64,000 nt of DNA from Heterodontus francisci (lineage: Eukaryota), in NCBI RefSeq assembly GCF_036365525.1, contig NC_090384.1, positions 55,363,895 to 55,427,894 on the forward strand, read 5' to 3'. A program made the translations under genes and the position numbers. Below, piece by piece: positions 2,621-51,827 of this stretch. The notes under the pieces were generated by a model. It was not told the DNA's origin, did not search any database, and was given only the letters and a program-made list of their open reading frames with translations. Each line of letters begins with the position of its first letter. The first letter of the stretch is position 1.

Positions 2621-4267
2621 GGAGCAGATGAGACAAGGTGGAATGTGAGGCAGAAAGGGATGCTGGGGTCAAGATACATTTCCCCTTGGCTCAAAAACCA
2701 AGTGATCATGATCTAGAAGAATTGCTTCTAAAGGTTACTTGCAGGGTAGTACACATATGTACAGACACCACAGACATTGTGAGGAACTGTGCAGCCGATG
2801 GTAGATAAGCTGGAGGAGTCCACTGTGTGCATTGAAATCCACATGAGAACATCTGAAGTAAGGACCACAAGACAGAGGCTATGACAGCAGTCAGCAATTT
2901 CATCATGGTTGTTCAGACTGCTGCCATAGAGGCCTGGTGTGTCAGATTGGGGATGGATGTCTCATGGGTCTTTATTAATCTCACTATTACTGATAAGTCT
3001 TCTTTCTTGCAGATCAGTGGCCAAGCACAACCATGGCAGAGGCCGGAATATGGCCCATTGGTGGTAGCATGGCCAAAATGCATTCAGCTGATGGTCTATA
3101 TGGGCAGCAGGACATGCATGCCCTCTAGCAAGCCCAATTGCCATGAGAGAAAGGAGGCAGGGCCAAATTTCTCAGGCAGCAGGACAAGAGATGCAGCCTA
3201 CGGCAGGTTCATCTCAGAACTTTTCTGCCTTGAACAAATGGCTCATGCTGACACAGCAACCAGACAGATGACACCAAGGAAAATCACGAGGTGAATACTC
3301 ATACACTATCCAAGTTTTGATTAAAACTATGGTTTCATTAAAGTTGTACTTGCAGACATTGTCCATGGCAATGTTTGAAAATGTATCTGATCAGTTTGCA
3401 TGAATTAAAATTGTTAGCTGATGCACACCAGAAAAAGGTTTGCGGGGGTGGGGGGTACAATTGTGCACATGAATGCTTGTGCAACGACCAGGCGTGGTAG
3501 TCAAGAGAAGGCCTCTTGTCTCAATGTGGCACAAATATGCTCTGCAGCTAGGAAAATGTTGTACTTTATCCACAGGCCTCTGCTGCTGTTCCTTCTCTTT
3601 CTCAGGCAAATGTGAATAGGGTCATCTCCTCCTGTATCCTCAGGTGTGGGTTACTGATGGGTGGATGTCATGGATCTTCAGTGCAGCCTCACCAACCTAA
3701 TTTCCCCACTAGCCACTTCTTCTGCTTCTAGGATGTAATACCCAATTAGAAACCTATGTTGTGACTTGAATGAAGATAGGGACCCATGGCAAATGGCAAA
3801 GAGTGAAGCATTAGGAACAGCAAAAAAAAAATACAAAATCAGTGAAGAAATAAGGATTTTACAAAGCTTTAATTGTATCTGTGTTTGGCACTTTAAATAT
3901 GTTTTTGTCTTTTCCCCAGCATTCAGAAACCTTAGACAGCCAATGCATACGAGTATGGTTACGACCGTGTATAAATAAGGCAGTAATGATGGAAAATGGG
4001 ATACAGAATTTCATCACATCATTACTGCCTCATTGTAACAGGATCACCCATTTAGGGTGGGCACTCTGCCAACAGCCAGAATGAAGGCAAAAAAATTGGA
4101 TGACGACTGAAGTGGGCTGGCAGCTGGCGTACAATACCCCACACCTTCCCACCGAAATAGGAATATCAGGGTTATTCTGTATAATAATTTGAAATGCCAC
4201 AGTGACACCACTATGAGTTACAACCAAACATGCAGAAAACATGAAATTCTCAAAATGCACACTTTAC

Positions 4268-4309
4268 CTCCTTCTGGTATGTTTTCATAATCTGTATGAT
4301 CAGCTGAAC
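4268..4309 (-). CDS. Micro-exon with tyrosine motif ([14 protein letters not shown])
   Basis: tctctctttag|GTTCAGCT...GAAGGAG|gtaaag; 42 nt, phase 1-1, 268 nt downstream of the last C1 exon; encodes TDYENI. Confidence 0.7.
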
Positions 4310-7300
4310 CTAAAGAGAGAAATTACCTGTTTAAACTCGACATTCATCAAATTAAACATTTCCAATGTGAGGGTATTAAGTAACTCATTTAATATTTTTA
4401 AACTAATTGAAATCACCAAAATTAACTATTTTCACCATCAATAAAAAAATTGTGTTTACTCAATATTAAGTTTCAATGTGAAATAAAGCTTCAAATGAAT
4501 GCTTTGAGTTCAACAAAACAATCACTAGTGCAATATAACATTTTTGCTCTGAATCGGAATCCAATAACAACATTCACCTTGAAGGAGTAATTTGAAGTTT
4601 TTCTCTTGAATTTCCTTTGTTTCTATGTGAAGCACCTCACATCTGATGGAACTATCATGATCATTTTCAGTTGTAGTAAATTGTGTACTCGTAACTGATG
4701 AAAATAAACCATCATCAGCAATCACAGGAGGGCTGTTAATCACTGAACAAGGTGTCCCATTTTTAAACCACTTTACTTGGACTTCAGCGGGAGCATAGCT
4801 TGTCAATGAGATACTGAGTGATATAGGCTGATTAACTCCAGGCAGTTCTGGATCAGCTTTAATAACAGACAAGTTCGGAGATAAAGCTGAAAAACAAATA
4901 AAAGGTTTTGTTAAGAATGTTAATAAGAATGTTTAGCCATTGAAGCAAACTGATTAATCTTCAATATGAGCAAAATGAAAACAAAGGGTGCTTTTTTTAG
5001 TCTGTGATATACCTAATTAATTAAGGGAAAGTCTAGATCTCATGAACCTGTGCAATATTACTATTAGATTGAAATATTTTCTATAAATATGCAACTCATA
5101 TTTACAGCAAAGAATGTTTTGAGAACATTGATCTCAAAGTGAAGATGGTGGTAAGATATTTTGGTGTACCACCTCGAGGCAGCATATAGTGACAGACAGC
5201 TTTACCCAGGGGTGTCAAAGGAACTCCTGAACAACAAAGGCTACTGCATTAATACTCAGACAGAAAGTAGAAGGAAAAATAGACCAAAACAAAACTCAAT
5301 TCAAAATCATTACAATTTTAGTTATTTGATCCAATTCCTGCTATGGGTATCTGTACTAAAAGTTTATTTTATAAAAAAGTTGAAGAAAGTTCAAAAGTAA
5401 AATGCACCCCCAGTGATGTCTTTAAGTATGAAAAAAAGGTTCAGAACTTGTGTGATTTAGCTTCTATAAACGTAATTACTTTAAAAGATGCATTCAGTTT
5501 GAATATATTTTTGAAGTGCATATGAATGACCTTAAATCATACATCATTCCTTTAAGTCAGTTCAATTGAAGTTTTCCTGTCCCATTTATCTAATTCCAAT
5601 TTGCTCAGAGCTATTTATTGTGAAATGGCTCATAAATGTGTGCCCCCTCATTCCCCATCTCCAGCATCAAGTGGAATTTTGCCAGATTATTTCTGTGTCA
5701 GCTAGTAACTTCAGCAAATTAATCACAAACATTTAAATATAAAGTGAAATTTTTCAAACTTGTGAAGAGAAGTATCAGGGTAAAACATACCTGAAAGTGT
5801 TAAAAATGCCTGTTTTCTAATTGGAATTTTTAACTTATCATGTATCACATGGAAGGAAAATTCTTGATCAAAATCTAGAGCAGTTGGTGTTACTTGCAAA
5901 CGGGAAGACATCCTATAACATCCACTTATGTCCTTCTCGGGTCCTTTAACTGTGATCCCTTTACATATCTCTTTTTCTTTCTGTCGCCAAGTTGTATTGA
6001 TGTCATGTGGGTAAAAGTTAACGACATTGCAAATGAAAGCTTGTTTTGCACCATACATAGCTTCTGGTGGGTCCAGTTTGATGTCTTCAACGAATGGAAT
6101 TCCTGTTCAAATTGCATGAAACTACAGTTGATTATGATAATGAATCGTCATCTTGTTTAAGGATCAAAAAGGAGATTCAAGAGATCTGTCTTTATTCCCC
6201 AAATACTGAATATTTAAATGACGACAGACATTCAATCTACATTGTGCAACTTGGGCTTTGTTCCAAAGATATAGTGGCATTTAAAAAAAACTCTTTACCT
6301 TTTTTGCTATTTATTTGATAATGTGATGGAGTTTATGTGCGTAGACTGCTATCTGAACAGTTGATCTGTTGAATGTACTGCCAGGTGCACTGACCTTAGA
6401 TTCAAAGCTTGCATTTTTCAGAGACAGTCCTTTACTGGAAAATGAAACCAAAGGCTTCAGAGTTCTGGGGAAATCAGAACTGGATGGAACCAGGTAAAAC
6501 AGTCATGTGATCAGAGTGGATCAGAGGCATGTGACTGGAGCTCATATTACAGACTGCAGTGTTGAAGCAAGCAGCAAGCAGTTGTTTTAAAAAAGACAAG
6601 CTACTGTGATTGGAACCTGTTTTCTAGGAGATGACCCCTGGGCAAATATGAGTTGCTACATCTGTTTTTGGTGCCTTAAAGAGTTACTAGTGGAACCACA
6701 CCATCAAGACTGCTGGGGAGATAGTGGTAATGTCACTGAACTAGTAATGTAGAGACCCAGGAAGACAGGATCTGGATATTTATCTGAAAGGATTTTGTGG
6801 CCGTAACTGGTGCCACCTTTGCCGAAAGGACTGCCCAAAAGATCCGTAAGATCTATCTTTGTTGCATCTGATAATTAATATGCAATCTTTAACAGTGATT
6901 TAACTGTTAGTTCATGTTTAAATTGCTTTTGGTTTGAGCATTACAGTAATTTTATGAAAGTGTATTTTGTCCGTTATTTTTCCAATTGGAGTCAGTCAGT
7001 GGATTGGATTCTTTTGGTTTGTGATCTCTACAGGATCATGACAATAATCACGGCTAAGCTGGGATGTCACAATTTAGGGCCAATGGAGTCACTGAAAGGA
7101 ACAATGTCAATTTAATGAATTTGAAACATTTACAAATATTCTTTTCAATGTTCCATAATCGGTACTATAAAGTTGCACTTCTTATTAGAATCATACCTTT
7201 TATTTTCAAAAAATGAATGGATGAGATAGGCTTGTTTGAAGTTTCAGAGTGAAGGATTTGCATTTTGAACTCTTTTCCATGGTCCTGATAAGTTGGAATG

Positions 7301-10300
7301 AATGTCCTTCTGGACAATCGAGAGTACAAACCAGTTGTTTCATCCCACTCAACTTCATCTGTTTCAACTCCATCTTTAGTTTTATCAAACCCTTTGAACC
7401 AGAATATCTGATTGTCTTCTGGATAGAAGCCATATGCTTTGCAGTAAAGTGTTACAGGTTTTCCCATCTCTGGGCAAAGGGGATCTGTTTTGATTTCTGC
7501 GACCTTTGGCACCGACACTGCACTCATACAAAAGAAACAGTGTTAATGAGATTGTATAACTGAAAAAAACACCACAATTTAAAGCATAGTACGCCTTGAT
7601 AAATTTTCAAACATCAATTTCTTGAACAAAATATCCTCTTCCTCTGCCCCTCTTTTCCCCCTCAGACTAGTATAGGCCCCGACTGTAGCCACTGCTCCAG
7701 TATCTCTTGGAAGTGACACACATTATGTAAGAGACTGAACATTGAGTGCTGGGAGGCTATTCAAGCCGAATCCTGCATTCACCAGATAAGCACCTACACC
7801 TTCCGATAGTGGTCAATGGACAATAACAGTTCACCTCCCCAGAGGCCAAGACAGACTGTAGCACTCCCCCAGTACCTCAGCTGAGGTCAGATAACTCAGG
7901 CATCACACTTGCAACCTTACAGATATAAATCACTAGTTAGGCCCCAGCTGGAGTACTGCGTTCAGTTCTGGGCACTGCACATTGGGAAGGATGTCAAAGC
8001 CTTAGAGAGTGTGCACAAGAGATTTACTAGAATGGTACCAAGATTGAGGGATTTCGGTTATGTGGAGAGACTGGAGAAGCTGCAATTGTTCCCCTTAGAA
8101 CAGTGAAGGTTAAGAGCAGATTTGATAAAGGTGTTTAATATCATGCATGCCTGCGAATGTGGTGGAGGCAGATTCAATCGTGGCTTTCAAAAGGGAATTG
8201 GATAATTATCTGAAGAGAGAAGACTTGCAAGGCTACCGGGAAAAAGTGGGGGAGTGTGACAAGCTGAGTTGCTCTTGCAGAAAGCTGGCATGGACATCAC
8301 CGGCTGAATGGCCTTCTTCTGTGCTATAACCATTCTATGATTCTACTTCTCTATTGCTTAGGCACAAATTGGGTGGCACATTCTCCCAATGAGCTAACAG
8401 GGAGCTGCAAATAATCATTTCCAACTCCATTCAGCTTAGTTCCAGTACTACTCTTGCCTCTGAAGAAGGCCTGGATACTAGTGCCATTCCACGGCTTGAG
8501 GAAATAATTTGCAGCTATAGGTCAGTACAATACTCAGAGCACTGCAGTACTCAAAGCGACTGTGTGCACCTCTTCAGATGGACATAAAAGATCTCACTGC
8601 ACTTTTTCCCATAAGCAAGGACTTCTTCTGGCCCAGCCAACATTTCACCCTCAAACAAAATCTGCCGAAAAAAAGATGAACTGGTCATTCATCACATTGC
8701 TGTTTATAGGAAATTGCACAAACTACCTGCCTTGTTTGCCTGCAAAACAACCAAGACAACACTTCAAAACTAATTCATGAGCAACCAAGGGCTGAATATT
8801 GTTCAGTTCCCTATGTCGGGCTTCATGGCGGATGAGGTTGAATCCGAAAATCCCCTCAATGGCTGCCATCGCCACTTCCATCCCACCCCCAACAGTCCCC
8901 CGTTCCTTCCTGCCATTACGCTTCTCTTTGCCGCTCCCTCCTGCGCCCGTCTTCTTGCTGCTCACTACCCGCTGCCTTCCCTTACCCACTCGCTCCGGTC
9001 TCGCCGCTCGCTCCCCACTTTTCCCCACCTCCCCAGCCGCTGGCTCCATGCCGCGCCACTTCTAGCCTCTCAGCCACATGCTCCTACGTTCAAGCATTCT
9101 CCGCCCTGCGCCCTGAAGAAGCAAGGTGGGCCGCGAGGGGTAACGGAACAACACAGGAACGAGTGGCCGAGAGGAGGGAAGTGGTGGACCTGGAGCTAGC
9201 AGCTAGGGGTGGGGGGAAATGGCCAGTGGGGAAGGGGTGGGGGAGCAGAAAGTGTTGAGGGCGGGAGCAAGTAACTTGAGGGGGGGGCGGGGAAAGAGAG
9301 CTGGTGGGTGGAGCAAGTGGCTGAGGGAAGGCAGCAGCATGGCAGGAATCGAGATGGGTGAAGTGGTGATTGAAGCAGGGATGTTGGGAGGGAGCAGGGT
9401 ACTGTTCGGGTGAATAGAGACAGCTATTGAGGGGTGAGGATGTCATTGCGTGGAGACGTCATGCGCGCATTCGTACTGGCAGGCTGGAAAACGTTTGCAT
9501 GTATTGATGACGTCTGCGATCGCTCTGCGCATGCTCTGTGTTGCTAGGAGTCACTTTGCAATATTTTATTTATTGCTGTTCTAAACCAAGAACAACTCCA
9601 AATGGAATAACTTTCACAGATAGCAAAAAAGATCAACTGGGATTTTCTGTTTGTTAAAATATAGAAAAAACAAATCAAGTTAATTTTAGTTTTAGGTGAG
9701 ATTTCTATTTAACATTTGTTGTTTTCTTTATTCCCCTTGTCTCCAATCAGATCACTCCAGGTCATGGCCTTTCACCATGGACCTTTGCCAATGTAGCAAA
9801 AACCCAGTAGAATTATCAGCACCAACTTCAATCTGTGTTTTAGTTTCCGATTATTAATGTTTACCAATTTACAATTTTATGTATTTTTAAAATGAATTTA
9901 AATGAAATACCCAAGTCAATTATGGCCCAGATTTTGCTGTCAAAATAATGACGAGGCTAATGGCACATGCCGTCTTTTATGCACAAACCGTACGACAACA
10001 TTAGGTAAGGGGTTGATGTGTGGTTAAGCCCAAACATACAAATGTTGCTGTTTGAGTTGCCATCAGTTTTGCCAAACAGCATCCCGCTGTTTGCCTCACC
10101 ATTGAAATGCACTGAATGGCCTAAAGTTGCTGTATTTCCACAGTAGATATGCACTAAACATGCCACAGAAAGTTTAGGCTGATCTGAAGTGAGGCAAGGA
10201 ACCTGTCATAGAGCTATCTTTAATCAAGCATGGATTCAGACAAAGGGAGCTTTTTTAAGCGGTCTAAAGTTCTTTTAACAATGTGTTGATCACTGCCAAT

Positions 10301-13300: not shown

Positions 13301-16300
13301 TAAGGGGTTGCTTTCCCTGCACACTCAGGTCACAGATACTCATTTTTCCTTGCAACTATGTTATCAGCTTGCAGCAACTTGCCACACAAAAAATGTAAAA
13401 GCTTGAACTTGCAAGAGGAAGTCCAACTAAGGGCTGTTAGATGCCCTGCCACAGCCGTTTATGGCCCTATATGTTTCTTTAAGAAATGTTCAGAAAAAAC
13501 TAGCCATCATATACTCCAGTTGGAACATGGTTACTTACCCAGTCGTTGGAGTAGCCAGTCAACTTGCAATGGCTCTATTAGGCTCTCATGTTCTACCTGG
13601 CACGTGTATTTATTCCCAACATCAGCTCTGGTAGGTACACTTTTCACACTACTTGTCAAGTAATAGAGTCCATCATTTCCCAGAGTTGGCTCACTAACTT
13701 CAGGTTCTTCTGCCATTTTCTCACCATTTTTGAGCCAGGTAACTGTGATTTCACTGGGGTAAAAAGAATGGATTGGACAGTTTAAAGTCATGGTTTCTCC
13801 TGCAACTGCTTTTTCTGTGCCACATGTTATCGTGTCCAGTTTTGGAGTAGCTGAAAAAGAAACATGAAAAAAAAACTTAATGGAGGCTTTAACAAAAGCA
13901 GAGTAAAGACACTGTGGATTAGATTCTACCCTATCCACAGCCAATGGCCAGAAAGTATATTCCATTGTGTTCTGAGAATTCTGAAGCAGGACTCGAGTAT
14001 AAAACAAAAGGTTACACAACAACCTCAAGTAAGAAATACAGCGCTCAGGAGACTTCATTCGTCACAGGGTTTTCCAAATAAAATCATCAATTTTGCTGCA
14101 TTGCAAAAAATAAGGAAACAGTATCTGTAAACAAATCTAATCTATTGTTCTGTACAAGGAATTGTCAAAAATTTACATACCTTTAACCTTCAGAGTTATT
14201 TCTTTCTGTTGCTGAATACCAGTGCATTCATGATAAACCTTACAGATGTACTTTGTGTCCTGGTCTTGCAGTATATCTGGTAGAATAACTAGTACACTGG
14301 TGATGCTGTATGTTTTATCTTCATACTGCAACTCACTTATGTAATGGTTATACTTGGACTTCTTCCCATTTTCATTAGAAAAGGTTGTTCTGTTGCTCTG
14401 ATCCAGCCTAATAATTTCTTTTCTCTCATTATTTTTTCTGCTTTGTTCCCATATGATAATTAATGGTCTTGGTTTAAATCCATTGATTGAACAAGTCAAG
14501 GCCACAAGTTCATTCTGATTGATGTAAGGTGGTGCCACAATGTTTGAAATCTTTGGTGGCACTTTGGGAAAAAGAAACAAAGAAATCAACTATTTAAACT
14601 GAAGAATTTTCACAAATTAATAAAAACAAGGAAATATTATTTTACAATCTGAATTTTCTATGATTTAGAGTCTACAGATGGCAGAACTGCATTACCACTA
14701 TCAAGCACATGAATGTCACTTCATATGTACACAAATATACATATTAATAAAAACACAGAATGGAAACAGGTAGCATAAATAATAATGATTAAAATCAAAT
14801 GTTCATGCATTACCTCCTTTAACATTCAGTATTACAGTTTTTGTAGCAAGTTGCAGAAGAGTATTATGGTCAATCCCAAGAATTAATTCGGCCCCATCAT
14901 CTTTGAATACATCAGGATACATTTTGACGTTGCATTTTACATTGGTAGTCCCATCACTGTTAGCTTCAAATACTGGTTCCAAACACTTAAAGGATGTGTC
15001 TTCTTCATTACCCCCATTGATAAGAAGCTGCACTTCAGCTGGTTTTACTTTGCTCTTTGTGATCTGGTCCGGGTAATGTGCGTCAAAAATTTTCTTTTTG
15101 TTTTCATCCCCCTTCCTCTTTAAGAATAAAATAATTGTAATCTCCTTAGGTCTAAATCCAGTAACTTGGCAACTGAAGATGGCTTCCTCAAAATGGCGAA
15201 TGATGGGAGGTTTGCTGAATTCACTAATTTTTGGAGAAACTAATAAAAAAAATTAAAACTTGACAATCGACATATTCACATTTGTTTACCCAGTTTTATT
15301 TTCTTGCTAGACCACAGGCAGAAGGTCATTTACAAGACACGATGTAGGACAGCAGTTTCTGCAAGGTTTTGCTGTCCTTTTCAATCAATTCAGCCAAAAT
15401 GGCCAAAGCAGTGCAAATTACATCCAGTGGAAATTGAATTTCCATGAACTTATGTGCTAGTTTAAAAAAAAACTTTGTGCTAGAAGCCAGCCCCATTCAC
15501 AAAACCGGCCACCCCCCAAGTTCAAATTAATCACCACTGCAAGCCCCGCTAACTGCACCTGACTGCGAGCACGCGTGGAGGCTCTTAAAATTAATAATAG
15601 GAACAAAAAATGCTGGAAACACTCAGTTCTGATGGGTCATCCACCTGAGACATTGATTCTGTCTCTTTCTCCACAGATGCTGCCAGATGTACTGAGTGTT
15701 TCCAGCATTTATTGTTTTTATTTCATATTTCCAGTATCCACAGTAGTTTGCTTTTCTCTTAAAATTAAGCTTTTTGGGGGCAAGGGTGGTCATTTGGTGG
15801 GGGGCGGGGGGGGGGGGGGGGGTGGTAGGGAAAGCGTCTTGGGTCCTGGAGGTGGTTGGGGAAGCAGTGGTGGCCCTCTATCGGGCACCTTGTGCCCGAT
15901 CGTCAGTGCCCCCCTCCGGAGTGTGGAGAGGCCGACAGCTCTCACTAGGTGGCCTTTCCCAGCTCCAGGGTGCCCGCTTTCTATGGGTAAAATCCCCATG
16001 GAGGCAGACAATTCTAAAGAGGGTGCAGGAGCAGAGAAAACTGTGTATATGTGCATAAATCATTGAAGGTGGCAGGACAAGTTGAGAGAGCAGTTAATAG
16101 AGCATCCTAGGCTTCATTAATAAGGACATTGGGCTGGATTTTACGTTGGGTGGATGGGAGCTGGCCACTGATGTAAAAGTTGGTGGCGAACCCACCTGCC
16201 TAGCCCGGGGATCTGTCCCGCATTTTACGAGTCACCGGGCTTTAATTGTTCCGAGGCAGGACTTCCACCTGCTTGAGGGAGGAAATCCCGCCTCACTGAA

Positions 16301-22300: not shown

Positions 22301-25300
22301 GGGGTTGCACAAACAGAGAGACCTAGGGATATGTGTGCACAAAACATTGAGGATGGTAGGGCAGGTTGAGAAAGCGATTAAAAAAAGCTTTGGGATCCTG
22401 GTCTTTATAAATAGAGGCATATAAAAGCAAGGAAGTTTTTATGAAATAAAAACAGAAAGTGCTGGAAAAAGACAACAGATCTGGCAGCATCTGTGGAGAG
22501 AGAATCAGAATTAACTTTTCAGGTCTGTGACCTTGCATCAGAACAGTTATTATGAACCTTCATAAAACACTGGTTTGGCCACAACTGCAGTGCTGTGTCC
22601 AATTCTGGGCACTGCACTTTAGGAAGGATGTGAACGACTTTGAGAGGTCACAGAATAGATTAGAATGGTTCCAGGGATGAGGGACTTCAGTTATGTGGAT
22701 AAGTTGGAGAAGCTGGTGTTGGACTCCTTAGAGCAGAGGCGATTGAGAGATTTCATAGAGGTGTTCAAAATCATGAGGGGTCTAGTCATGGTAGAGAGCC
22801 ACTGTTCCCATTGGCGAAGGGGTTGAGAACCAAAGGGGAAGAAAACAGAGGCAATAGAACCAAAGGCGAAATGTGGAAAAACCAGCGAGCGGTTGTGATC
22901 TGAAATGCACTGCCTGAAAGGATGGTGGAGGGAGATTCAATCAAGGCTTTCAAAAAAGGGAATTAGATAAGCGTACAAAGGGGAAAGAATTGCAGGGCTA
23001 TACGGAAAGGTCATGGAGTGGGACAGGCTGGATTGCTCTTGCAGACAGCCAGCATGGGCTTGATGAGTGGCCTCCTCTGTGTTATAACCATTCTAGGTTT
23101 CTACACAAGTATCGTAAGGAGTATTTTTTAAAGCAAAATTTTGGAAAATCACTGCTTGATTGTGCTGATTCATGACAGAGTTTTACATCTGGCAATTTGC
23201 AAATTAGTTTTGAGTGGAAATGCTCAGAAAATGTTTGGGGCATAGTTTTGCGCTGGATTGCCAATTGCAGCCAAAATGGAAACTCCAGGTCCAGTTATCT
23301 AATGAACACCATGGTGGGAGCACAATCACAAGAACTGTTATGCTTCAAGGGGAAGGCCCAACACAACCTAATTTGTGGAAAACATGCAATAAACAGCCAA
23401 AGAATTACAAATACACATTTCACATTGCACAATCAAAAGATTTCACCAGTCAAAACATTACCTTTTTTAAATTTCAGGCAATATAAATATAGACAACACA
23501 GTACTCCACATAACAGCAACGTAGCAAATACACTTCCAACAACTGATCCTGCTACTGAAGTTATTTTGTGCTCTGAAATATGAAACATAAATACAGAAAT
23601 ATTTAGACAAATATTATGTCACAAGAAATAAATTGTTTCACTTGCACAGAATTTAAGAGGCTGCTCCATTTTTGTAAATTATAAACTAAGATACTTAAAC
23701 ACAGTAAAGTCTTTAAAGAATTTGAAATTACAGATAAGTGCAATTAAATGTCCTCTAAATGATGGCCGAGAAATTTCATGTGAGTTGCACCAAGGAAAAA
23801 TAAGTTTCAGCTGCCAATGGCCCAGAGAGGTATTTACACTGCAATTTTATGGGTCAGTTTATTTGCATGCGTGTTATAGTGAAAAAATAGTTGTAACATG
23901 CTGGTTTTTTTTTTTTTAGAGATACAGCACTGAAACAGGCCCTTCGGCCCACCGAGTCTGTGCTGACCATCAACCATCCATTTATACTAATCCTACACTA
24001 ATCTCATATTCCTACCACATCCCCACCTGTCCCTATATTTCCCTACCACCTACCTATACTAGTGGCAATTTATAATGGCCAATTTACCTATCAACCTGCA
24101 AGTCTTTGGCATGTGGGAGGAAACCGGAGCACCCGGAGAAAACCCACGCAAACACAGGGAGAACTTGCAAACTCCACACAGGCAGTACCCAGAATTGAAC
24201 CCGGCTCGCTGGAGCTGTGAGGCTGCGGTGCTAACCACTGCGCCTGTGTTGCATGGAAATTACAATTAAGCCTTTAAAAAGCAAATTTCAGCGGAAGACT
24301 GCAGTAGCAGCAGGCAAGTAAGGAACCGTGCTCAAGTGTCTCTCCCAATCCTTTGTGCACCTTGTTTCCCCTTTCTAATGCTACATTCTGGTTCCACTCC
24401 CCTGCTGAATTAGTTTAAACCCTCTCCCACAGCACTAGCAAAACACCCCACAAGGACATTGGTCCAAGCCCTGTTGAGGTGCAACCCATTCAGCCTGTAC
24501 AGGTCCCACCTCCCCAATGTCCCAGGAATATAAACACCTCCCTCCTGCACAACCTCCAGCCACGAATTCATCTGCCCTATCCTCCTATTTCTATACTCAC
24601 CAGTGCTTGGCATTGGAAGTCAACCTGCAGATTACTACCTCTGAGGTTCTGCTTCTTAAATCTCTTTCCAGCTTCCTAAAGCTGCCTGCTGGAACTCTTT
24701 CTACTATGTCGTTGGTACTGATGTGGACCACGACCGCTGGCTGTTCACCCTGCCCCCTCATAGTGCTCTACAGCTGCTCAATGACATCCTTGAACCTGGC
24801 TCTAGGGAGGCAACATACAATCCTGGGATTCGTATGCAGCCTCAGAAATGCCTGTCTGATCACCTAACTATAAAATTCCCAGAACCTCAGCCACCGATAG
24901 TGCTGCGGACTTGGCTCTGATTGTACTCTCCTGAGGAACGATCACCCTCACCAGTATTCAGAACTGAATATCAGTTAGAGAATGGGATGCTCTGAAGGGA
25001 TTCCTGCGCTATGCCTGGTCTTCCTTGACTGTTTGGCTGTCACCCATTCCTTCTCTGGCTGCACTCTCTTAAGCTGTGGGATGACCACCTCCTGGAATGT
25101 GCTATGCATGAAACTTTTAGCCTTGCGGATGTACTGCAGTAACTACAGCGCCTTCCGAGCTTCTCCACCCGACGACGTTTCCTCCACACGTGGTTATCCG
25201 GTATATAGGAAGTGCCCTGAAGTTCCTACATGGAACAGGATGTGCATTCCACATGTCTGAGGGGCACCTTCATAGCCCTATTTATTAGACTAACTAAACA

Positions 25301-40300: not shown

Positions 40301-43300
40301 ATAACTGGGGGGGAAGTGGGAAGGATCATGCAGCTGTTGAGTCTATTGTGGCCCTGGTAGTCAGTCTCTGTATTTGTTGCTTCCAAAGGCGGATGATATC
40401 CCAAGCGGTACAGATGGTAATGCTGCCCAACAAAGGGTGCACCCTGGTATCCCCTGCGGTCAGAGCCCCTCTCTCAGGGAATATGAAACATGAATATGCA
40501 TGACAGGACTTTAGCGAAGCCGTATGAGAATGATAGACTAGGATATCAGAAGCCCGCTGAACTCCAGTAGGATCCCTGGAGCAATTGGTGAGTGGAGATG
40601 ATCGGGAATGTCCAGCCTGGGTCAGGTGGTGTGCCTGACCAGGGTCCAAAAGGAGGAACTGAAGTGGGACCAGTGGGGCAACGTTAGTAGATTATTTAGC
40701 ATTAGGATACATTAACAGTCTTAGAAGGAAGAAGGAAGCACTGTAGTTGTGGGAACCAGGGTATGATGGGATGCGTGGCAATGGTTATGGGAAGCTGTAC
40801 AACTCAGAACTTTAACTGCCTTTATATCTGTGTAAACAACTTGGCCTTGAGAGAAGACTGCGATTGCAGGAGGCACAGGATATTATAAACTGTGAAGACA
40901 CCAAGCGAAGGAGACAACAGGTGGGGGGTGGGTGGATGGGTGGGTGGGATGATTAGTGAGACAATACACTTCAGTTTATTGATCAAGCTGCAGCTTTGGA
41001 ATGTATCCGGGAGTGCAGATGGGGTTGTATGGACAAATGAGTAATTGTTATTGTATTCTATAAATTTGTACCAGATTCGGTTTCTGTGAGAAGCCTCTGG
41101 ACGTTTCACCAGGCACGTCTCCCTTGCACCGCTGTTTGAATAAACCTTTATTTACTTTAATCCTGTGGACTTGAGACCAGTTATTTTCCCCACAACACCA
41201 CACACGTTAAAAGTGCCTGTAAGCTAAGTTATTGAAAGCTGGGCAGCACTGACAGCAATCACACATGTTAAATTATAAATGAACTTTTAAAGCTTTGGTA
41301 TCCCACAAGCAGCCAGAAGGAAACTAGGTTCCTAACAGCTCCTTTATACTTATTGCATTAGATGCAATGCTTCATTTGCTTTCTCTTGTATTCAACAGCA
41401 GTTTATCCTGTTGATCAGTGAGCTGCCAAAGCCTCTATATGCTGCTTTATTAAAGGAAAGGAGAGTTCAGAAGACTACCAAAGATTTGTAGGTTGATAGA
41501 TAAATTGGCCATTGTAAAAATTGCCCCTAGTGTAGGTAGGTGGTAGGAGAATTGAGGGGAAAAAGTGGGGATGTGAGAGGGAAAAATGGGATTAATGTAG
41601 CATTAGTATAAATGGGTGGTTGATGGTCGGCGTGGACTCGGTGGGCCGAAGGGCCTGTTTCGGTGTTGTATTTCTCTATGACTACCAATCAGCTGTTTAA
41701 AAAGTGTGTTACTATTCAGGAGACTATAGACCTAATAGCAAGTATGAATGATGCAATCATGACCCTTATCCCCTTCTGAGTGGTGCATCATGCTTTGAAA
41801 AAGTTAGTTTACAATTTAGAGCAAGAAATGAGTGGAAGTCAAAAATGAAATAAAAACAGGATTCTGTGACTGCATTATCTCACTGTTGATCTTTTATCCA
41901 TTTGATAGTTTGCAGATCATTTCACACATCAACTCCCTCCAAGGTTGGTGTATCTGTTGATTCTCTCTTCACCCCTTTTCCTATTTTTCCAACATTACTA
42001 AATGTTTGTTTACCTCTTGGCCATACGTTTGCTGAAGGGTACCCACCCAAAATGTCATTTAAAAAAAAATATTTATTTCCAGTATTTTCAAATCAGTCTG
42101 GGCACAAGCAGATTCCACTGTACAGACAATCTGAAGATAATTCAGCTTAATTACTGTTAATAGCAGTTTTATAAAATTACTATAAGCAATCTCCCTATGA
42201 CTCTAACACGCAGTATTATGGAACAGCTTTTAAACATGCATATTGTTGTCTCCTATTCTGAAGTTTAGAAATCTTATGGCTGGTTGATCTGAATAATCAT
42301 TATGGTATACAATAGTCTTTTCATTGTGGAATAATAAAGGATGAATTCTTGATTTAAGTCGGATGCAAGCTACAGTACAAATGCAATGTTAAATAATGGG
42401 CATGTCATTTAAACACGTGTAAGCTTCAACAAAAGCGCACTGAAAAATATTATGCAAAGAAGAGAACATACCATTCACTGTGAGTTTAGTTTCCTTTGAC
42501 GTATTGACAAATGAACGGTGATTCATGATGCACCTGTACCGATTACCATCGTCATCCAATTTTGGTTTAATTCTCACTCTACTAGAAACATTGAAGGTTC
42601 CATCACTGTTGGAAGTTAATGCACCAGTGCAGACTTCTTCTGTTAGTTTCTTAGTTTCCCCATTTGCTATCTTTTCCCAGAAGAGCTCATGCTGCTGAGG
42701 ATAAAATCCAGTAACATCACATTTCACAGACCCCTCTGAACCAGTCAGAATAGTAATGTGTTCTGTGGACAAATAGATCACTGGTGCAGCTGCATTAAAG
42801 ATAAATAGAAGAACATGTCAGACAGGTTGAAGGCACACTGCCATAAATATCTAAAGCCAGGTCGAAGTTAATTTGTACAAACATATACTAAAAACACCAC
42901 TTTCCTTCCTTCAGCTATCTCACTCATATAATAATCTTCTTCCAGAATGTGCACAATTATATCTGGGTTAAATTAAGTAACTACTCCAATACCTCAAATG
43001 TAGATTGAAACATTTCAAATTCCTCCATCATCAACAAGCATGAGGAGGAATGGGGAAAGAGATGAGGACAAAGCAGGGGAAGATGAGGAGGAGGAAGAAG
43101 ACAGAAGGAGAATGACAACAACTTGTTTATATAACCTCTAAAGAATTTAAAAGAAAAAAACCATGCATTTATATAGCATCTTTCGCAACCACAGGACATC
43201 CCAAAGTGCTTTACAGCTAATGAAATGTTTTTAAAGTGTGGTCATTGTTGTAATGTAGAAAACATGGCAGCCAATTTGCACACTGCAAATTCTCACAGAA

Positions 43301-46300
43301 AGCAATGTGATATGACCAGATAATCTATTTTTGTGATGTAGATTGAGGGATAAACATTGGGCAGGATACCAAGGGTAACTCCCCTACTTTTCTTGGTAAT
43401 AGTGCTGTGGGATCTTCCACATCACCTGAGAGGATGGACAGGGCCTCAGTTTAATGTCTTATCTGACAGACAGCACCTCCAACAGTACAAAACTCCCTCA
43501 GTGGAATGTCAGCTTTTGATTTTTTGGCTCAAGTCCTTGAGCAGGCCTTAAACCCACAACCTTCTAACTTAAAGACAAGAGTGCTACCAAATGAGCTACA
43601 AGCAACACGAAAGATATTTAGGAAGAAATGCCAGAACACAGGAACAAGGTGATTGAAGGAATGGTGGGACAGAGGATTGCAGGATACTTAACAAGCCATA
43701 GTCAGAAGAACAGAGTTTTCAGGGTGGGGTCAGTAGGTCTGGAGAAGATTACAGAGATATGGAAGGCTAAGGCCATAAAAAGGACTTGTATCATTTAAAA
43801 TTCATACACCAAAAAGAACATCTCACAAACAAATATTTACCCCATCGATATTTTCTAAATCCTGGACAAACCTGCCAGAAAGTCGACAATATTTTCATGT
43901 TAGAATTGCTGCAGAAATTGGCCTTGACCAGTTGTAGATTTCTCAGGGCTATGGAAATAATTAACCCTCAAAGGGTTTAGAGTGATGATAAAGAAAGCCT
44001 CAGATTTCCATAGAAAATAGGAGCAGGAGTAGGCCATTTGGCTCTTCGAGCCTGCTCCACCATTCATTATGATCATGGCTGATCATCCAACTCAGTAACC
44101 TGTTCCCACTTTCCCCCCATATCCTTTGATCCCTTTTGCTCCAAGAGCTATATCTAACTCCTTCTTGAAAACATACAATGTTTTGGCCTAAACTGCTTTC
44201 TGTGGTAACGAATTCCACAGGCTCACTACACTCTGGGTGAAGAAATCTCTCCTCATCTCAGTCCTGAAAGCTTTACCCCGTATCCTTAAGACTATGACCC
44301 CTGGTGCTGGACTCCCCCACCATCTGGAACATCCTTCCTGCATTTACTCTGTCAAATCCTGTTAGATTTTATAGGTTTCTATGAGATCCCCCCTCACTCT
44401 TCTGAACTCCAGCGAATATAATCCTGACCAACTCAATCGCTCCTCATAGGTCAGTCCCACTATCCCAGGAATCAGTCTGGTAAACCTTCACTGCACTCCC
44501 TCTGTAGCAAGAACATCCTTCCTCAGATAAGGAGACCAAAACTGCACACAATATTCCAGGCGCAGTCTCACCAAGATCCTGTATAATAGCAGCAAGACAT
44601 CCCTGCTCCTATGCTCTAATCCTTTCGCTGTGAAGGCCAACATACCATTTGCCTTTTTACCGCCTGTTGCACCTGCATGCTTACCTTCAGCGATTGGTGA
44701 ACGAGAACACTCAGGTCTCATTGCATATTCCCCTCTCTCAGTTTATAGACGTTCAGATAATAATTCGCCTTCCGGTTTTTGCTACCAAAGTGGATAACCT
44801 CACATTTATCCACATTATACTGCATCTGCCATGCATTTGCCCACTCACTCAACTTGTCCAAATCACCCTGAAGCCTCTCTGCATCCTCCTCACAACTCAC
44901 CCTCCCACCCAGTTTTGTGTCATCTGTAAATCTGGAGATATTACATTTAGTTCCCTCATCTAAATCATTAATATATATTGTAAATCGCTGGGGTCCTAGC
45001 ACCGATCCCTGCGGTACCCCACTCGACACTGCCTACCATTCGGAAAAAGACCCATTTATTCCTACTCTTTATTTCCTGTCTGCCAACCAATTTTCTATCC
45101 ATCGCAATACACTACCCCCAATCCCACACGCTTTAATTTTACACGCTAATCTCTTATGTGGGACTTTGCCAAACGCCTTCTGAAAGTCCAAATAAACCAC
45201 ATCCACTGGCTCCCCCCTCATCAACTCTACTAGTTATATCCTCGAAGAATTCTAGTAGATTTTTCAAGCACAATTTCCCTTTTGTAAATCCATGCTGACT
45301 CTGTCCAATTCTATCACTGTTCTCCAAGTACTCTGCTATAAAATCTTTGATAATCTTCCATTTGCAAATCTACCATATTAATATAAATGTTTTGTGCAAC
45401 TTTTTAAACTATGTTTTATAGTGATACTCAAGGGATTGTGCATGTAATTTGTATTTTTTCTTACTGGTTATGTAGACTTCATAAATCTCGATATTGGGAG
45501 TATGCTGATTGGTTGTTTTAGGTTGTTTGTTCTTTGGGAGCTGTTTGCGGGCACGTCTTGTGCAGCCTATTAGTTTTCTGTTCTGAGCAGATGACATAAT
45601 AAAAATTTACCAGAGCACTCTTTTTGAAGAAGTAGTTTTTGTGTTCTTTTCTGCACATTACAGTTGTGTTGCTACCAAAGAAAACTCTTCTATTCTGCCC
45701 CAACATTGCAACTCACCTTTAACCCCAGAGAATTACCTCCGCTACACCATTACAAGCTTCCCATTTCCCAGACTTCCTGCTAGTCTCAGGGGTTAGACTG
45801 CAAATTCCACGTCAAAATTAAGACTGCCCAAACTCATTGAACACATTGCTAGGAGACGGAGCAAAATGTCATTCCATCAGTCTGAGCTGCATTAAAACCC
45901 AGGTTTCATAAGTGAAAAGGTAGTGTGCCAACCCAAAGAATCACCTACTATATATTGAGCATATTTATTTTACAGCTGTAAAGGTGTTTCCACAATACAA
46001 CAGATAACATTTTGGACACTCTTACCTGACACCTGCATTTCCGATCTCTTTTCTACCTTATCAGGTGTGACAAATACAGTGCAAGTGTACTCCCCTTCTT
46101 CATCAAACTGTATGTTTGGAAGATATAGTGAAGCAACTCCTCCCTGTAAATCAGCATCAGACATTTTTGCTCCTTGTCTTTTTGATGAATGTATTCCTCC
46201 ATTAAAGACATAGATTTCTTTCTTCTCAGGCCCAAATGCCCACTGGACCCCTACATTTGTTAGGTCGATAGCTCCTCCGACAGTAAATATACATTCAAGG

Positions 46301-46361
46301 GAAACATCTTCCTTCGCCAAGACTTCCTTTGGGCTTGTAAATATGTTCACCTCCAAGGTTT
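4268..46361 (-). CDS. NCR3LG1: B7-H6/NCR3LG1-like multi-exon gene, partial: IgV-IgC1-TM-(IgC1)x6-Tyr motif, ~956 aa over 10 exons; leader and last exon not located
   Basis: Exons 46026-46361, 42472-42789, 23462-23572, 14814-15239, 14181-14561, 13539-13850, 7197-7517, 5791-6102, 4578-4886 and 4268-4309. All have AG/GT borders, lengths divisible by 3, phase 1-1 junctions and no stops. V and first C1 resemble human B7-H6 as I recall it ([26 protein letters not shown]; [10 protein letters not shown]). The symbol means 'like'; orthology is not tested. Confidence 0.8.
4578..4886 (-). CDS. Exon: post-TM IgC1 domain 6 (B-strand Cys to Ile)
   Basis: tttcag|CTTTATCT...CTTCAAG|gtgaa; 309 nt. [30 protein letters not shown]. 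Confidence 0.88.
5791..6102 (-). CDS. Exon: post-TM IgC1 domain 5 (F-strand Cys to Phe)
   Basis: aacag|GAATTCCA...CTTTCAG|gtatg; 312 nt. [29 protein letters not shown]. Confidence 0.88.
6322..7043. mobile_element. Solo LTR
   Basis: Begins TGTGATG and ends CATGACA (imperfect inverted termini); flanked by the 4-bp direct repeat ATAA (6318-6321, 7044-7047). Confidence 0.65.
7197..7517 (-). CDS. Exon: post-TM IgC1 domain 4 (F-strand Cys to Met)
   Basis: tgcag|TGTCGGTG...ATAAAAG|gtatg; 321 nt. [27 protein letters not shown]. Confidence 0.88.
7900..8345 (+). mobile_element. CR1 LINE 3' fragment
   Basis: [16 protein letters not shown] motif; tail ending ATTCTATGATTCTA. Confidence 0.85.
8370..8790 (+). 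mobile_element. DeuSINE (SacSINE1-like) remnant
   Basis: Deu-domain-like CTCTTCAGATGGACATAAAAGATCTCACTGCAC; related to the copy at 43150-43610. Confidence 0.45.
10600..13285 (+). mobile_element. Degenerate LINE of the CR1/L2 superclade (endonuclease-RT), distinct from the HER1-type copies
   Basis: Frameshifted pieces [34 protein letters not shown]; 3' end CACCACCACCTTCTCAAG...CCCACATCCCATGAA. Confidence 0.8.
13539..13850 (-). CDS. Exon: post-TM IgC1 domain 3
   Basis: tttcag|CTACTCCA...CGACTGG|gtaagt; 312 nt. [35 protein letters not shown]; canonical C1 set. Confidence 0.92.
14181..14561 (-). CDS. Exon: post-TM IgC1 domain 2
   Basis: caaag|TGCCACCA...GTTAAAG|gtatg; 381 nt. [29 protein letters not shown]; both Cys present. 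Confidence 0.88.
14814..15239 (-). CDS. Exon: post-TM IgC1-like domain 1 (degenerate, long insertion)
   Basis: ttattag|TTTCTCCA...AAAGGAG|gtaat; 426 nt. [46 protein letters not shown]; lacks the C-strand Trp and F-strand Cys. Confidence 0.85.
15595..15755 (+). mobile_element. Penelope-derived short element with 13-bp TSD
   Basis: CACAGATGCTGCCAGA family; flanked by CTCTTAAAATTAA at 15582-15594 and 15756-15768. Confidence 0.65.
16131..16848. mobile_element. Harbinger-like MITE
   Basis: Imperfect TIRs GGGCTGGATTTTACG / CGTAAATTTCCGGCC; an internal ~180 bp is near-identical to 15826-16005. Confidence 0.6.
18346..20700 (-). mobile_element. CR1 LINE fragment (endonuclease-RT)
   Basis: Minus-strand ORFs with [22 protein letters not shown] and [10 protein letters not shown]. 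Confidence 0.85.
19042..19382 (+). mobile_element. HE1-type tRNA-derived V-SINE
   Basis: A box TGGCGCAGTGG, B box GGTTCGATTCC, V-core TCTGCGTGGGTTTTCTCCGGGTGCTCC, CR1-derived tail and poly(A). Confidence 0.9.
20866..21060. repeat. Minisatellite, ~5 copies of a ~37-45 bp unit (TACACTGAATGC..GTTGACCC..CCCCATG)
   Basis: Directly visible imperfect tandem repeats. Confidence 0.8.
21740..23100 (+). mobile_element. Degenerate CR1 RT fragment containing a Penelope-derived insert (~22446-22546)
   Basis: [12 protein letters not shown] and SADDTQL motifs; insert flanked by TTATGAA repeats. Confidence 0.75.
23462..23572 (-). CDS. Exon: transmembrane segment ([37 protein letters not shown])
   Basis: tatttcag|AGCAC...AAAAAAG|gtaatg; 111 nt, phase 1-1, in frame with both flanking Ig exons. 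~27 uncharged residues followed by KFKK (positive-inside). Absent from the ORF track. Confidence 0.85.
23905..24244 (-). mobile_element. HE1-type V-SINE
   Basis: Reverse complement of 19042-19382, with poly(T). Confidence 0.9.
24370..25260 (-). mobile_element. CR1 ORF1 (esterase) remnant
   Basis: [13 protein letters not shown] motif; homologous to 34060-34981. Confidence 0.7.
27718..28068 (-). mobile_element. HE1-type V-SINE
   Basis: Full-length reverse-complement copy of 19042-19382. Confidence 0.9.
29017..29543 (+). repeat. 5' LTR
   Basis: TGAAGTGGGACCAG...CACAACA; AATAAA at ~29486. Confidence 0.9.
29547..29564 (+). promoter_or_regulatory. Primer-binding site, tRNA-Ser
   Basis: TGGCATAGTTGGCAGGAT versus TGGCGTAGTCGGCAGGAT, the complement of the vertebrate tRNA-Ser 3' end; 2 mismatches, both CpG-type transitions. 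Confidence 0.8.
31406..31500 (+). mobile_element. Penelope-derived short element with hammerhead-like core and 16-bp TSD
   Basis: CCGAAGA-AGGGTCACTGACCC-GAAACGTT; TSD TAGGAGGAACTAAGTT at 31390-31405 and 31501-31516. Confidence 0.75.
31680..33300 (+). mobile_element. 5'-truncated CR1 LINE (RT) nested in the ERV
   Basis: ORFs 31767-32660 and 32664-33212 with YRPISL, QGSMLGP and FTDD. Confidence 0.9.
33780..37970 (+). mobile_element. Near full-length CR1/HER1 LINE (ORF1 Zn-finger/SGNH esterase; ORF2 endonuclease-RT, frameshifted) nested in the ERV
   Basis: [13 protein letters not shown].., IVIGDS..HVGTND; [26 protein letters not shown]; ATTCTGTG tail. Confidence 0.92.
38560..40560 (+). pseudogene. 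Disrupted env-like ORF of the LTR element
   Basis: Non-LINE ORF fragments with N-glycosylation sequons (NIT, NST, NGT) and a terminal hydrophobic segment [13 protein letters not shown], directly upstream of the PPT and 3' LTR. Identity is inferred from position. Confidence 0.45.
39667..40177 (-). mobile_element. Rearranged CR1 fragment inside the env-like region
   Basis: Near-identical to the reverse complement of ~49600-50090 plus tail; has an internal deletion and two micro-inversions. Confidence 0.85.
40648..40658 (+). promoter_or_regulatory. Polypurine tract
   Basis: AAAAGGAGGAA immediately before the 3' LTR TG. Confidence 0.75.
40660..41197 (+). repeat. 3' LTR
   Basis: Direct repeat of 29017-29543 with substitutions and indels. 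Confidence 0.9.
41478..41685 (+). mobile_element. HE1-type SINE, 3' half
   Basis: Matches 19190-19375. Confidence 0.75.
42472..42789 (-). CDS. NCR3LG1: Exon: extracellular IgC1-set domain (B7-H6/tapasin-like)
   Basis: tgcag|CTGCACCA...GTGAATG|gtatg; 318 nt. [37 protein letters not shown]; both Cys present; NVS and NTS sequons. Confidence 0.92.
43150..43610 (-). mobile_element. DeuSINE (SacSINE1-like) with L2-type tail
   Basis: TTTATATAGC..CCCAAAGTGCTTTACA tail, Deu-like core, and a tRNA-like head at the right end. Confidence 0.55.
44010..45350 (-). mobile_element. 5'-truncated CR1 LINE
   Basis: [18 protein letters not shown] and [11 protein letters not shown]. Confidence 0.88.
46026..46361 (-). 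CDS. NCR3LG1: Exon: IgV-set domain (B7-H6-like)
   Basis: tttag|AAACCTTGGAG...GTGTCAG|gtaag; 336 nt. [45 protein letters not shown], with the canonical Cys-Trp-Cys. Confidence 0.92.
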
Positions 46362-46766
46362 CTAAATATCAAGAGAACAATTAAAACATGAATATCGCCA
46401 TTCAAATGTCTCAACTAGAAATAACAGAGATTCAAAATATACTATTGAAGTGGCTCAGTAGCACCTCAGATACTCATCTCCAAAGCACTGCCATGGAATG
46501 TTTAGTTGCAAGTCACATCCTTGACATGGTCTGCTACCAATGTGTAATCCCTTTGAGAGGGGTTGAGCAAATGATAGTTGCTTCCTCATAGGGAATTAGG
46601 GAGCATCACATTAGGTAATTCACTTGGATCCCCTATCAACTGATTATGAAGCAGCAAAGATGGAGGACAGGAAATGGGCTCATGAGCATCCATTTTTTGG
46701 GCACTACAGGTGCCCTTAGAGCTCCAACAACTCATCCGCTGCCAAGACCACTCTCGAGAAGCTCTA

Positions 46767-51064: not shown

Positions 51065-51827
51065 TAGGAGGGAAAATTTTACTCTGAAAAGGGCACCTTC
51101 CACTTACCCAGGTCCAGAGAAATTAGAAGCAAGTCGGCAAATGCCACAGTTTAGAGACCCCTAGGTGTGAGCAAGCTACTGCTGGAATGTAACCAGCTGA
51201 AGCCACCCAGCTTACTTGAACAAAATTCTCATAAGCTTCCCACTGTTTGTTTAACTAGGACCGTCCCATTTTTTTTAGTTTATTGGCTTGCATGGTTACT
51301 TGGAACTGGCCTGAAACAATCCCAGACCCCAGTGACCGATGTGATTAGCAACCTATTCTGACTCACCAATCAACAGTGTTGATAGACTGGCCTGGGTGAG
51401 GTATCAGATTTCTAATACAGTTGCCAAAAAGATTAAGTTTTAAGCCAAAGACTTACCTCAACATGCAGCTGGGAGAAGCAGGATTGCATCTACCAGCTCT
51501 AGAGCAGTCCTCACAACAGCTACTGCCCAGCAATACAGAAGCCCAAAATTTATTTCCCCATCATTGCTGATTTGCCTTTGGTCTACTTTACATGAGGCCT
51601 GAGGCCCAATTTCTCAGGACTGTATGTTAGGGTATCACCCAGATTTCTAAAGCTAATTGTATTCCCCTCATTATATCTCCATTTAATTTTGCTTTCTCAG
51701 CACAGATTACGGGTCAAACCTGGAAACTTTCTGGTTTGTACAGAAAGTCATCTTTTCTAATAGTTTTGCTTCCAGATCACTGACTAATACACTGTGAAAC
51801 AAGACTGTTCTCAGCATTCATACAGTC

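What the first reader, a model, noticed from the sequence alone, without database searches (positions are those of the whole stretch)
23462..23572. Hidden, symmetric transmembrane exon with a GxxxG motif and a Cys cluster
Seen: a 111-nt exon isolated among transposons and missed by the ORF track, encoding [36 protein letters not shown] fits the GxxxG helix-dimerisation motif, and there are four Cys near the cytosolic end. Inference: dimerisation and S-palmitoylation. Because the exon is phase 1-1, skipping keeps the frame and would give a V-(C1)x7 isoform in which the same domains are secreted or luminal, a possible splice-controlled topology switch.
Basis: partly seen in the sequence, partly recalled or inferred. 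Interest (0 to 1): 0.75.

Follow-up and report, generated by a model that had tools for sequence, protein, structure and literature searches.

The report
Shark B7-H6 with inward-facing antibody domains
The exon is real and encodes the single membrane anchor of a likely shark version of B7-H6, a surface protein that natural killer cells recognise; the oddity is the six antibody-like domains behind it, which likely sit inside the cell and would face outward only in a rare anchor-less splice form annotated in two relatives but untested here.

Summary
The exon is real: minus strand 23572-23462, 111 nt, AG/GT, phase 1-1, the only strongly hydrophobic symmetric exon my scan found, and matched by a profile of orthologues alone (E 1.1e-7). 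It is the transmembrane exon of a B7-H6 (NCR3LG1) orthologue: V-C1-TM-(C1)x6-Tyr linker. V and C1 each hit human B7-H6 best, and nurse shark B7H6 is deposited with this layout. The skip idea has modest support: 5 of 138 homologous C1-C1 junctions lack the anchor, two being RefSeq sister isoforms (stingray, caecilian); untested in this species. The notable feature is the likely cytosolic C1 array, shared from chimaera to frogs. Four of six domains mostly lack the disulfide pair, and a disordered loop carries an acidic-dileucine sorting motif (14 of 52 distant homologues against 3.0 by shuffling). Known gene, unusual and apparently unstudied tail.

The parts
46026..46361 (-). V-set exon, predicted NKp30-binding domain
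   Evidence: Pfam V-set E 3.9e-7; best PDB hit human B7-H6 E 2e-10; AG/GT, phase 1-1
42472..42789 (-). Extracellular C1-set exon (C1a)
   Evidence: Pfam C1-set E 1.3e-9; best PDB hit human B7-H6 E 3.4e-12; Cys pair 27 of 27
23462..23572 (-). Transmembrane exon (the finding): short stalk, hydrophobic core 23475-23555, basic stop-transfer KFKK 23463-23474
23535..23549 (-). GSVVG (GxxxG) at the outer end of the TM; poorly conserved
   Evidence: both Gly in 6 of 26 homologues; small-xxx-small in 14 of 26
23478..23510 (-). Four cysteines; the first is common in the family, the other three are nearly specific to this species
   Evidence: 16 of 26, then 1 of 26 each
14814..15239 (-). First post-TM domain (C1b): C1-like fold without Cys pair, with a disordered insertion
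   Evidence: no Pfam hit; model pLDDT 85.6, residues 60-76 under 50; VIA top hit B7-H6 C1 domain Z 13.4, rmsd 1.8, 98 aligned, tied with MHC II and SIRP-gamma C1 domains; pair 0 of 27
15019..15036 (-). EVQLLI, acidic-dileucine consensus [DE]xxxL[LI] inside the disordered loop
   Evidence: consensus from PMC3418312 passages
14181..14561 (-). Post-TM C1c; keeps Cys pair and an NxT sequon
   Evidence: Pfam C1-set; pair 27 of 27, sequon 13 of 27
13539..13850 (-). Post-TM C1d; keeps Cys pair
   Evidence: Pfam C1-set E 4.4e-19; pair 24 of 27
7197..7517 (-). Post-TM C1e; F-strand Cys replaced
   Evidence: Pfam C1-set; pair 0 of 25
5791..6102 (-). Post-TM C1f; F-strand Cys mostly replaced
   Evidence: Pfam C1-set; pair 4 of 20
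4578..4886 (-). Post-TM C1g; B-strand Cys replaced
   Evidence: Pfam C1-set; pair 0 of 21
4268..4309 (-). 42-nt mini-exon with TDYENI (4278-4295), a candidate phosphotyrosine/SH2 site
   Evidence: AG/GT, open; Y-x-N-I/L in 7 of 19 cartilaginous-fish homologues examined, 7 of the 13 sharks

Best explanation
The exon encodes the single membrane anchor of a likely shark B7-H6 (NCR3LG1) orthologue, which is predicted to show its V and C1 domains outside the cell for the killer-cell receptor NKp30 and likely holds the six further C1-type domains in the cytosol as a scaffold. Shown: the exon chain, domain types, the single hydrophobic segment and the basic residues behind it. Inferred: a leader (exon outside the window, present in orthologues) sends V-C1 into the ER, the TM stops transfer, and the rest stays cytosolic. 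There the EVQLLI loop would bind AP clathrin adaptors and limit surface display by endocytosis or lysosomal sorting, and the YENI tyrosine would recruit an SH2 protein. The exon is likely included in most transcripts; a TM-less secreted form is likely a minor product. Palmitoylation of the inner cysteines is plausible but would be specific to this species.
For: V and C1a both hit human B7-H6 first in the PDB. The three residues that make the polar contacts to NKp30 (Thr127, Pro128, Lys130; PMC3135353 Table II) are identical in the alignment and read T-P-K in 21 of 26 homologues. Nurse shark QTT61906.1, named B7H6, has the same domain order at 54% identity. One TM segment and net basic charge behind it in all 27 aligned sequences. 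TM present at 133 of 138 C1a-C1b junctions. Cys pair 27 of 27 in both outer domains against 0/27, 0/25, 4/20, 0/21 in four post-TM domains. Acidic dileucine motif in the C1b loop: 14 of 52 distant representatives against shuffle mean 3.0, maximum 9, and about 4% in control windows; loop disordered in both models. Tyr motif in 7 of 13 sharks.
Against: C1c and C1d keep the Cys pair (27/27, 24/27) and C1c an NxT sequon in 13 of 27; sequon density after the TM is lower but not zero (0.60 against 0.99 per 100 aa). The leader exon is not in the window and no signal-peptide predictor was run. The strict dileucine motif is missing from 49 of 75 homologues, homologues are not independent, the loop was picked by eye before the test, and consensus matches can be inactive (PMC3418312 passages). 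No Tyr motif in the five rays and skates or the chimaera examined. No topology, binding or synteny data.
Confidence: 0.82

Rival explanations
1. Regulated topology switch: tissue- or stimulus-dependent skipping of this exon makes a secreted V-(C1)n decoy for NKp30, so the post-TM domains are selected to fold in both cytosol and ER.
For: TM-less RefSeq sister isoforms in two distant lineages, 2 of 18 multi-isoform gene sets counted by hand, each an exact deletion of the TM exon; three more TM-less models. C1c and C1d keep the Cys pair, C1c a sequon. Soluble human B7-H6 is associated with NKp30 down-modulation (PMC6836727 passages).
Against: 133 of 138 junctions keep the TM. Other exons are skipped too (Rhincodon X2 lacks C1b), as expected when all exons are phase 1-1. 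Splice-site scores of the TM exon (4.6, 3.9) lie within the range of the other exons. P0016 is a partial hypothetical model whose RefSeq counterpart has the TM, so gene callers can miss this exon. Human soluble B7-H6 comes from ADAM shedding or exosomes. Cytosolic sorting and Tyr motifs would be idle in a secreted form.
Confidence: 0.17
2. The exon's main role is GxxxG-driven helix dimerisation plus multiple S-palmitoylation, which cluster the ligand.
For: GSVVG and four Cys next to KFKK are in the sequence; a small-residue stripe persists in 14-15 of 26 homologues; Rhincodon, Ginglymostoma and Latimeria carry tandem GxxxG.
Against: Both Gly in 6 of 26; any GxxxG in 9 of 27 TMs; 19% expected by shuffling; the window is the only one of 27 with more than two Cys; 3 of 53 distant TMs have three or more; a Cys in the last 14 residues in 6 of 26.
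Confidence: 0.12
3. A B7-H6-like paralogue that does not bind NKp30 and works as an adhesion or signalling receptor through its long tail.
For: Several species carry two or more copies (Mobula, Pristis, Latimeria, Microcaecilia, Protopterus). Only about half of the 11 contact positions are identical to human. Synteny untested.
Against: The polar-contact residues are kept; domain-for-domain match to the deposited nurse shark B7H6.
Confidence: 0.12
4. The post-TM domains are luminal or extracellular in the main form because the hydrophobic segment does not cross the membrane once in the type I sense.
For: C1-set domains are otherwise known to me only outside the cytosol (recalled); two keep their Cys pair.
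Against: No second TM; positive-inside charge; lost Cys pairs; dileucine and Tyr motifs.
Confidence: 0.04

Closest known systems
Nurse shark B7H6 (QTT61906.1, 1092 aa)
   Same: V-C1-TM-(C1)x6-Tyr linker, domain for domain; 54% identity over 963 columns
   Different: One TM Cys instead of four, tandem GxxxG; has a seventh C1-like terminal domain that I did not find within this window
Human B7-H6 / NCR3LG1
   Same: V + C1 ectodomain, single TM, NKp30-contact Thr-Pro-x-Lys, Tyr motifs in the tail
   Different: Human tail is Gag-like and the protein 454 aa (PMC2715080 passage); here the tail is a C1 array. Human soluble form arises by shedding or exosomes
Uncharacterised homologues of chimaera, rays, bichir/reedfish, coelacanth, lungfish, caecilian, newt and frogs
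   Same: Same V-C1-TM-(C1)n layout
   Different: Number of tail domains varies from 1 to 9 among the V-C1a-TM forms; Tyr motif seen only in sharks among the cartilaginous fish examined
Glycophorin-A-type GxxxG dimers and palmitoylated NK ligands such as MICA
   Same: Motif match; juxtamembrane Cys (glycophorin A recalled; MICA palmitoylation seen only as a reference title)
   Different: Motifs not conserved in this family
Intracellular Ig arrays such as titin I-band
   Same: Tandem beta-sandwich chain; top Foldseek row for the full orthologue model, but TM-score only 0.21 and rmsd 48.8
   Different: Those are I-set domains (recalled); these are C1-set by Pfam and fold and membrane-tethered

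Membership tests
B7-H6 / NCR3LG1 | V-set plus C1-set ectodomain followed by one TM segment | tested here: met
   layout from PMC2715080 passages
B7-H6 / NCR3LG1 | Both outer domains closest to B7-H6 among solved structures | tested here: met
   E 2e-10 against 5.9e-9 for CD276; 3.4e-12 against 1.3e-10 for IgG; margins are modest and no tree was built
B7-H6 / NCR3LG1 | NKp30 polar-contact residues Thr127, Pro128, Lys130 | tested here: met
B7-H6 / NCR3LG1 | N-terminal signal peptide | tested here: inconclusive
   no leader exon found in the window; orthologues have hydrophobic leaders
B7-H6 / NCR3LG1 | Binds NKp30 | not tested
   needs a binding assay with shark NKp30
B7-H6 / NCR3LG1 | Synteny with NCR3LG1 neighbours | not testable with these tools
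   no genome held; no neighbouring gene recognised in the window
Human-type B7-H6 | Gag-like cytoplasmic tail | tested here: not met
   tail is C1-set domains; lineage feature, since the named nurse shark protein also has C1 domains there
GxxxG TM dimers | GxxxG in the TM helix | tested here: met
   GSVVG
GxxxG TM dimers | Motif conserved across orthologues | tested here: not met
   6 of 26
GxxxG TM dimers | Measured helix self-association | not testable with these tools
   needs TOXCAT or cross-linking
S-palmitoylated TM proteins | Cys at the cytosolic membrane edge | tested here: met
   CLKFKK; only 6 of 26 homologues have one
S-palmitoylated TM proteins | Thioester-linked acyl chain | not testable with these tools
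   needs acyl-biotin exchange
Acidic dileucine sorting signal | [DE]xxxL[LI] in an exposed disordered segment | tested here: met
   EVQLLI, residues 68-73 of C1b, within the pLDDT<50 stretch 60-76; enriched over shuffles
Acidic dileucine sorting signal | Binds AP-1/2/3 and drives sorting | not testable with these tools
   needs LL-to-AA mutant and adaptor assay
Alternatively spliced soluble/membrane pair | Skip junction in RNA of this species | not tested
   no reads examined; only isoform models of relatives

The most novel reading that the evidence does not exclude
Ancestral jawed-vertebrate B7-H6 is a two-state protein: with this exon it is a membrane NK-cell ligand carrying a cytosolic rod of C1-set domains that sets its surface lifetime through a dileucine loop; without it the same rod is secreted with the V domain as a long soluble NKp30 decoy. 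The same C1 domains would be under selection to fold in both cytosol and ER, which would explain why two keep their disulfide cysteines and four have lost them. Humans later carry a Gag-like tail instead and make the soluble form by shedding.
Probability: 0.15. Interest if true: 0.72.

Novelty: new member of a known kind. Interest (0 to 1): 0.42.

Why it matters
As a TM exon it is ordinary, and the gene family is named. What it divides is not: C1-set domains are the building block of antibodies, T-cell receptors and MHC and are expected outside the cytosol (own knowledge), yet this family likely keeps six or seven inside the cell from chimaera to frogs. That offers natural disulfide-free C1 scaffolds and a testable model of how an NK 'danger' ligand was held off the surface before mammals. 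If skipping is regulated, one exon would turn an activating ligand into a decoy. The gene is easy to mis-annotate: most database copies are 'uncharacterized' or 'hemicentin-like'.

Tried and rejected
Reads: no RNA holder listed for 13500-15300 (11 rows, none on record as RNA), and no reads were laid on the window, so expression and skipping in this species are open. TM homodimer prediction, two copies of the exon peptide: no answer (score 0.05, mark 0.32), no evidence either way. No whole genome held, so no synteny, leader exon or last exon. Profile searches for the leader and for the orthologues' seventh tail domain found no new exon in the window. A second TM that would return the tail to the lumen: none. 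An alternative TM exon: none in the scan, which covered symmetric exons only. First guess for the mini-exon boundaries (4311-4267) was wrong and corrected to 4309-4268. Foldseek on the full orthologue model was dominated by long Ig chains and uninformative beyond the B7-H6 ectodomain match (TM-score 0.87-0.90 to target). Earlier-findings look-ups returned nothing. Literature: searches (B7H6/NCR3LG1 with shark, Xenopus, cytoplasmic, IgSF terms; shedding, palmitoylation, soluble isoform; dileucine) listed no paper whose title or abstract start describes the cytosolic C1 array or a TM-skipped B7-H6; four likely sources were not held and the elephant shark supplement had no B7H6 hit. P0039 (N-truncated) and P0061 (TM at the N-terminus, lacks V and C1a) were set aside as not being TM-skip forms.

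Full report
Observation. The minus strand at 23572-23462 is a 111-nt segment bounded by AG and GT, phase 1 at both ends, with an open frame for a short stalk, a 27-residue hydrophobic core and KFKK. A crude splice-site and hydropathy scan over both strands, limited to symmetric exons of 60-240 nt, gave this one candidate. A profile from 26 homologous segments, without the window's own, finds it at E 1.1e-7 with the next hit at 0.33. It is flanked by sequence repeated elsewhere in the window (22440-23104, 23904-24880) and by introns of 18,899 and 8,222 nt; that these repeats are LINE and SINE pieces is my recalled label, not a scan. The exon is real.

The gene. Ten exons join in one open frame of 955 residues: V (46361-46026), C1a (42789-42472), TM, six C1-type exons (15239-14814, 14561-14181, 13850-13539, 7517-7197, 6102-5791, 4886-4578) and a 42-nt mini-exon (4309-4268), all AG/GT and phase 1-1. 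Pfam calls V-set and C1-set for seven of the eight Ig exons. The eighth, C1b, folds as an Ig sandwich (pLDDT 85.6) whose top structural match among 48,161 chains is the C1 domain of B7-H6 (Z 13.4, rmsd 1.8, 98 aligned), tied within 1 Z with MHC class II and SIRP-gamma C1 domains. The leader exon and the orthologues' seventh tail domain were not found in the window.

Identity. V and C1a each match human B7-H6 best among solved structures. Of the 11 NKp30-contact residues in PMC3135353 Table II (passages read), Thr59, Gly62, Thr127, Pro128 and Lys130 are identical in the alignment, including all three that make polar contacts; T-P-K stands in 21 of 26 homologues. A homologue search returned 30 proteins, among them nurse shark QTT61906.1, deposited as B7H6, and a frog protein named NCR3LG1. 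The closest are sharks (Heptranchias 65%, Pristiophorus and Cetorhinus 63%), so the source is likely a shark. A profile search listed 150 proteins, 143 new; 75 of these show C1a-TM-C1, and the ten I named were skate, chimaera, sawfish, reedfish, lungfish, caecilian and frogs.

In 26 aligned homologues both glycines of GSVVG are kept in 6; any GxxxG occurs in 9 of 27 TMs; shuffling the window's TM core yields one 19% of the time. A small-residue stripe is somewhat better kept (14-15 of 26), so weak helix packing is not excluded. The first Cys, mid-membrane, is kept in 16 of 26; the other three in 1 of 26 each, and the window is the only one of 27 with more than two. Palmitoylation at CLKFKK is plausible by position (own knowledge) but cannot be a family function.

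Skipping. Over all fetched proteins with a C1a-C1b junction, 133 of 138 have the TM (isoforms counted separately, so not independent). The five without are Hemitrygon isoform X6 (1 of 7 listed), Microcaecilia LOC115468918 isoform X3 (1 of 4 listed), a partial hypothetical Scyliorhinus model whose RefSeq counterpart has the TM, and two unnamed proteins. The first two differ from their sister isoforms only by the TM exon. RefSeq alternative isoforms usually rest on aligned transcripts (own knowledge, not checked for these), so skipping probably occurs, in 2 of 18 multi-isoform gene sets (hand count over). But other exons are skipped as well, the TM splice sites score within the range of the others, and human soluble B7-H6 is made by ADAM shedding or exosomes (PMC6836727 passages). 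No reads were examined for this species.

Topology. With hydrophobic leaders in orthologues, one TM and net basic charge behind it in all 27 sequences, everything after the exon should be cytosolic. Three signs agree. First, the B-F cysteine pair is present in 27 of 27 V and C1a domains but 0 of 27, 0 of 25, 4 of 20 and 0 of 21 for C1b, C1e, C1f and C1g. Second, C1b carries an insertion that is disordered in both models and variable in sequence, yet holds [DE]xxxL[LI] in 26 of 75 sequences and in 14 of 52 representatives clustered at 50% identity, against a shuffle mean of 3.0 (maximum 9) and about 4% in equal windows elsewhere in the proteins. That is the AP-adaptor consensus (PMC3418312 passages), which also warns that matches can be inactive; I chose the loop by eye first, and kin share motifs. 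Third, a Y-x-N-I/L linker occurs in 7 of 13 sharks and none of 6 rays, skates and chimaera. Against: C1c and C1d keep the pair (27/27, 24/27) and C1c a sequon in 13 of 27. All seven post-TM domains of the Heptranchias protein model as beta-sandwiches (mean pLDDT 80.7, pTM 0.38, so their arrangement is unknown).

Mechanism. Most likely a type I NK-ligand whose anchor exon is normally included. Shown: exon structure, domains, motifs, conservation counts. Inferred: NKp30 binding, cytosolic location of the C1 array, adaptor-driven internalisation through EVQLLI, SH2 recruitment at YENI, a minor secreted form. The weak mutual similarity of the C1 domains (21-33% for most pairs) and the C1b fold match fit old duplications of a C1 exon to the far side of the TM exon, which shared phase 1-1 allows (inference).

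Comparison and novelty. Human B7-H6 has a Gag-like tail (PMC2715080 passages); this one does not. The shark form is already deposited under the family name, so the gene is a new member of a known kind. Ten literature searches listed nothing that describes the cytosolic array, the dileucine loop or the skip isoform; I read passages of PMC12227049, PMC10751288 and PMC11599192, where B7H6 appears only in reference lists. Four likely sources were not held (nothing seen of them), and they may describe the tail, so absence from print is not established.

Verdict. Observation confirmed; interpretation partly supported. Ordinary TM exon of a known gene with an unusual, conserved, likely cytosolic C1 tail. 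Interest 0.42.

Noticed in passing
window 15019-15036 (-): Acidic-dileucine motif in a disordered insertion of the first post-TM domain, enriched across homologues; several distant ones read ExxPLL.
   Followed up: yes
window 4268-4309 (-): Mini-exon with TDYENI, matching TxYxxI and YxN phosphotyrosine patterns (labels recalled); kept in many sharks, absent in the rays examined.
   Followed up: partly
P0008, P0014/P0040, P0090, P0109, P0071: Tail domain number is plastic: Mobula LOC134353705 has six near-identical C1e repeats, P0090 seven C1b-like repeats, and Amblyraja a doubled V-C1 ectodomain.
   Followed up: no
P0100, P0113, P0128, P0133-P0135, P0141-P0144 and similar: A second, more distant set of unnamed proteins with V-C-(C)-TM followed by many Ig domains; inward Ig arrays may form a wider family.
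   Followed up: no
window 55754-58900 (-): Two long ORFs (741 and 306 aa) that read like the endonuclease and reverse transcriptase of a little-decayed LINE, broken by one stop; label recalled, not scanned.
   Followed up: no
window 60620-62980: About 2.3 kb purine-only tandem array with a 15-nt period, giving 750-810 aa repetitive ORFs on both strands; satellite or assembly artefact.
   Followed up: no
window 46362-64000 and 1-4267: Neither the leader exon nor the conserved last tail domain was found within 17.6 kb upstream or 4.3 kb downstream; presumably beyond the window.
   Followed up: partly
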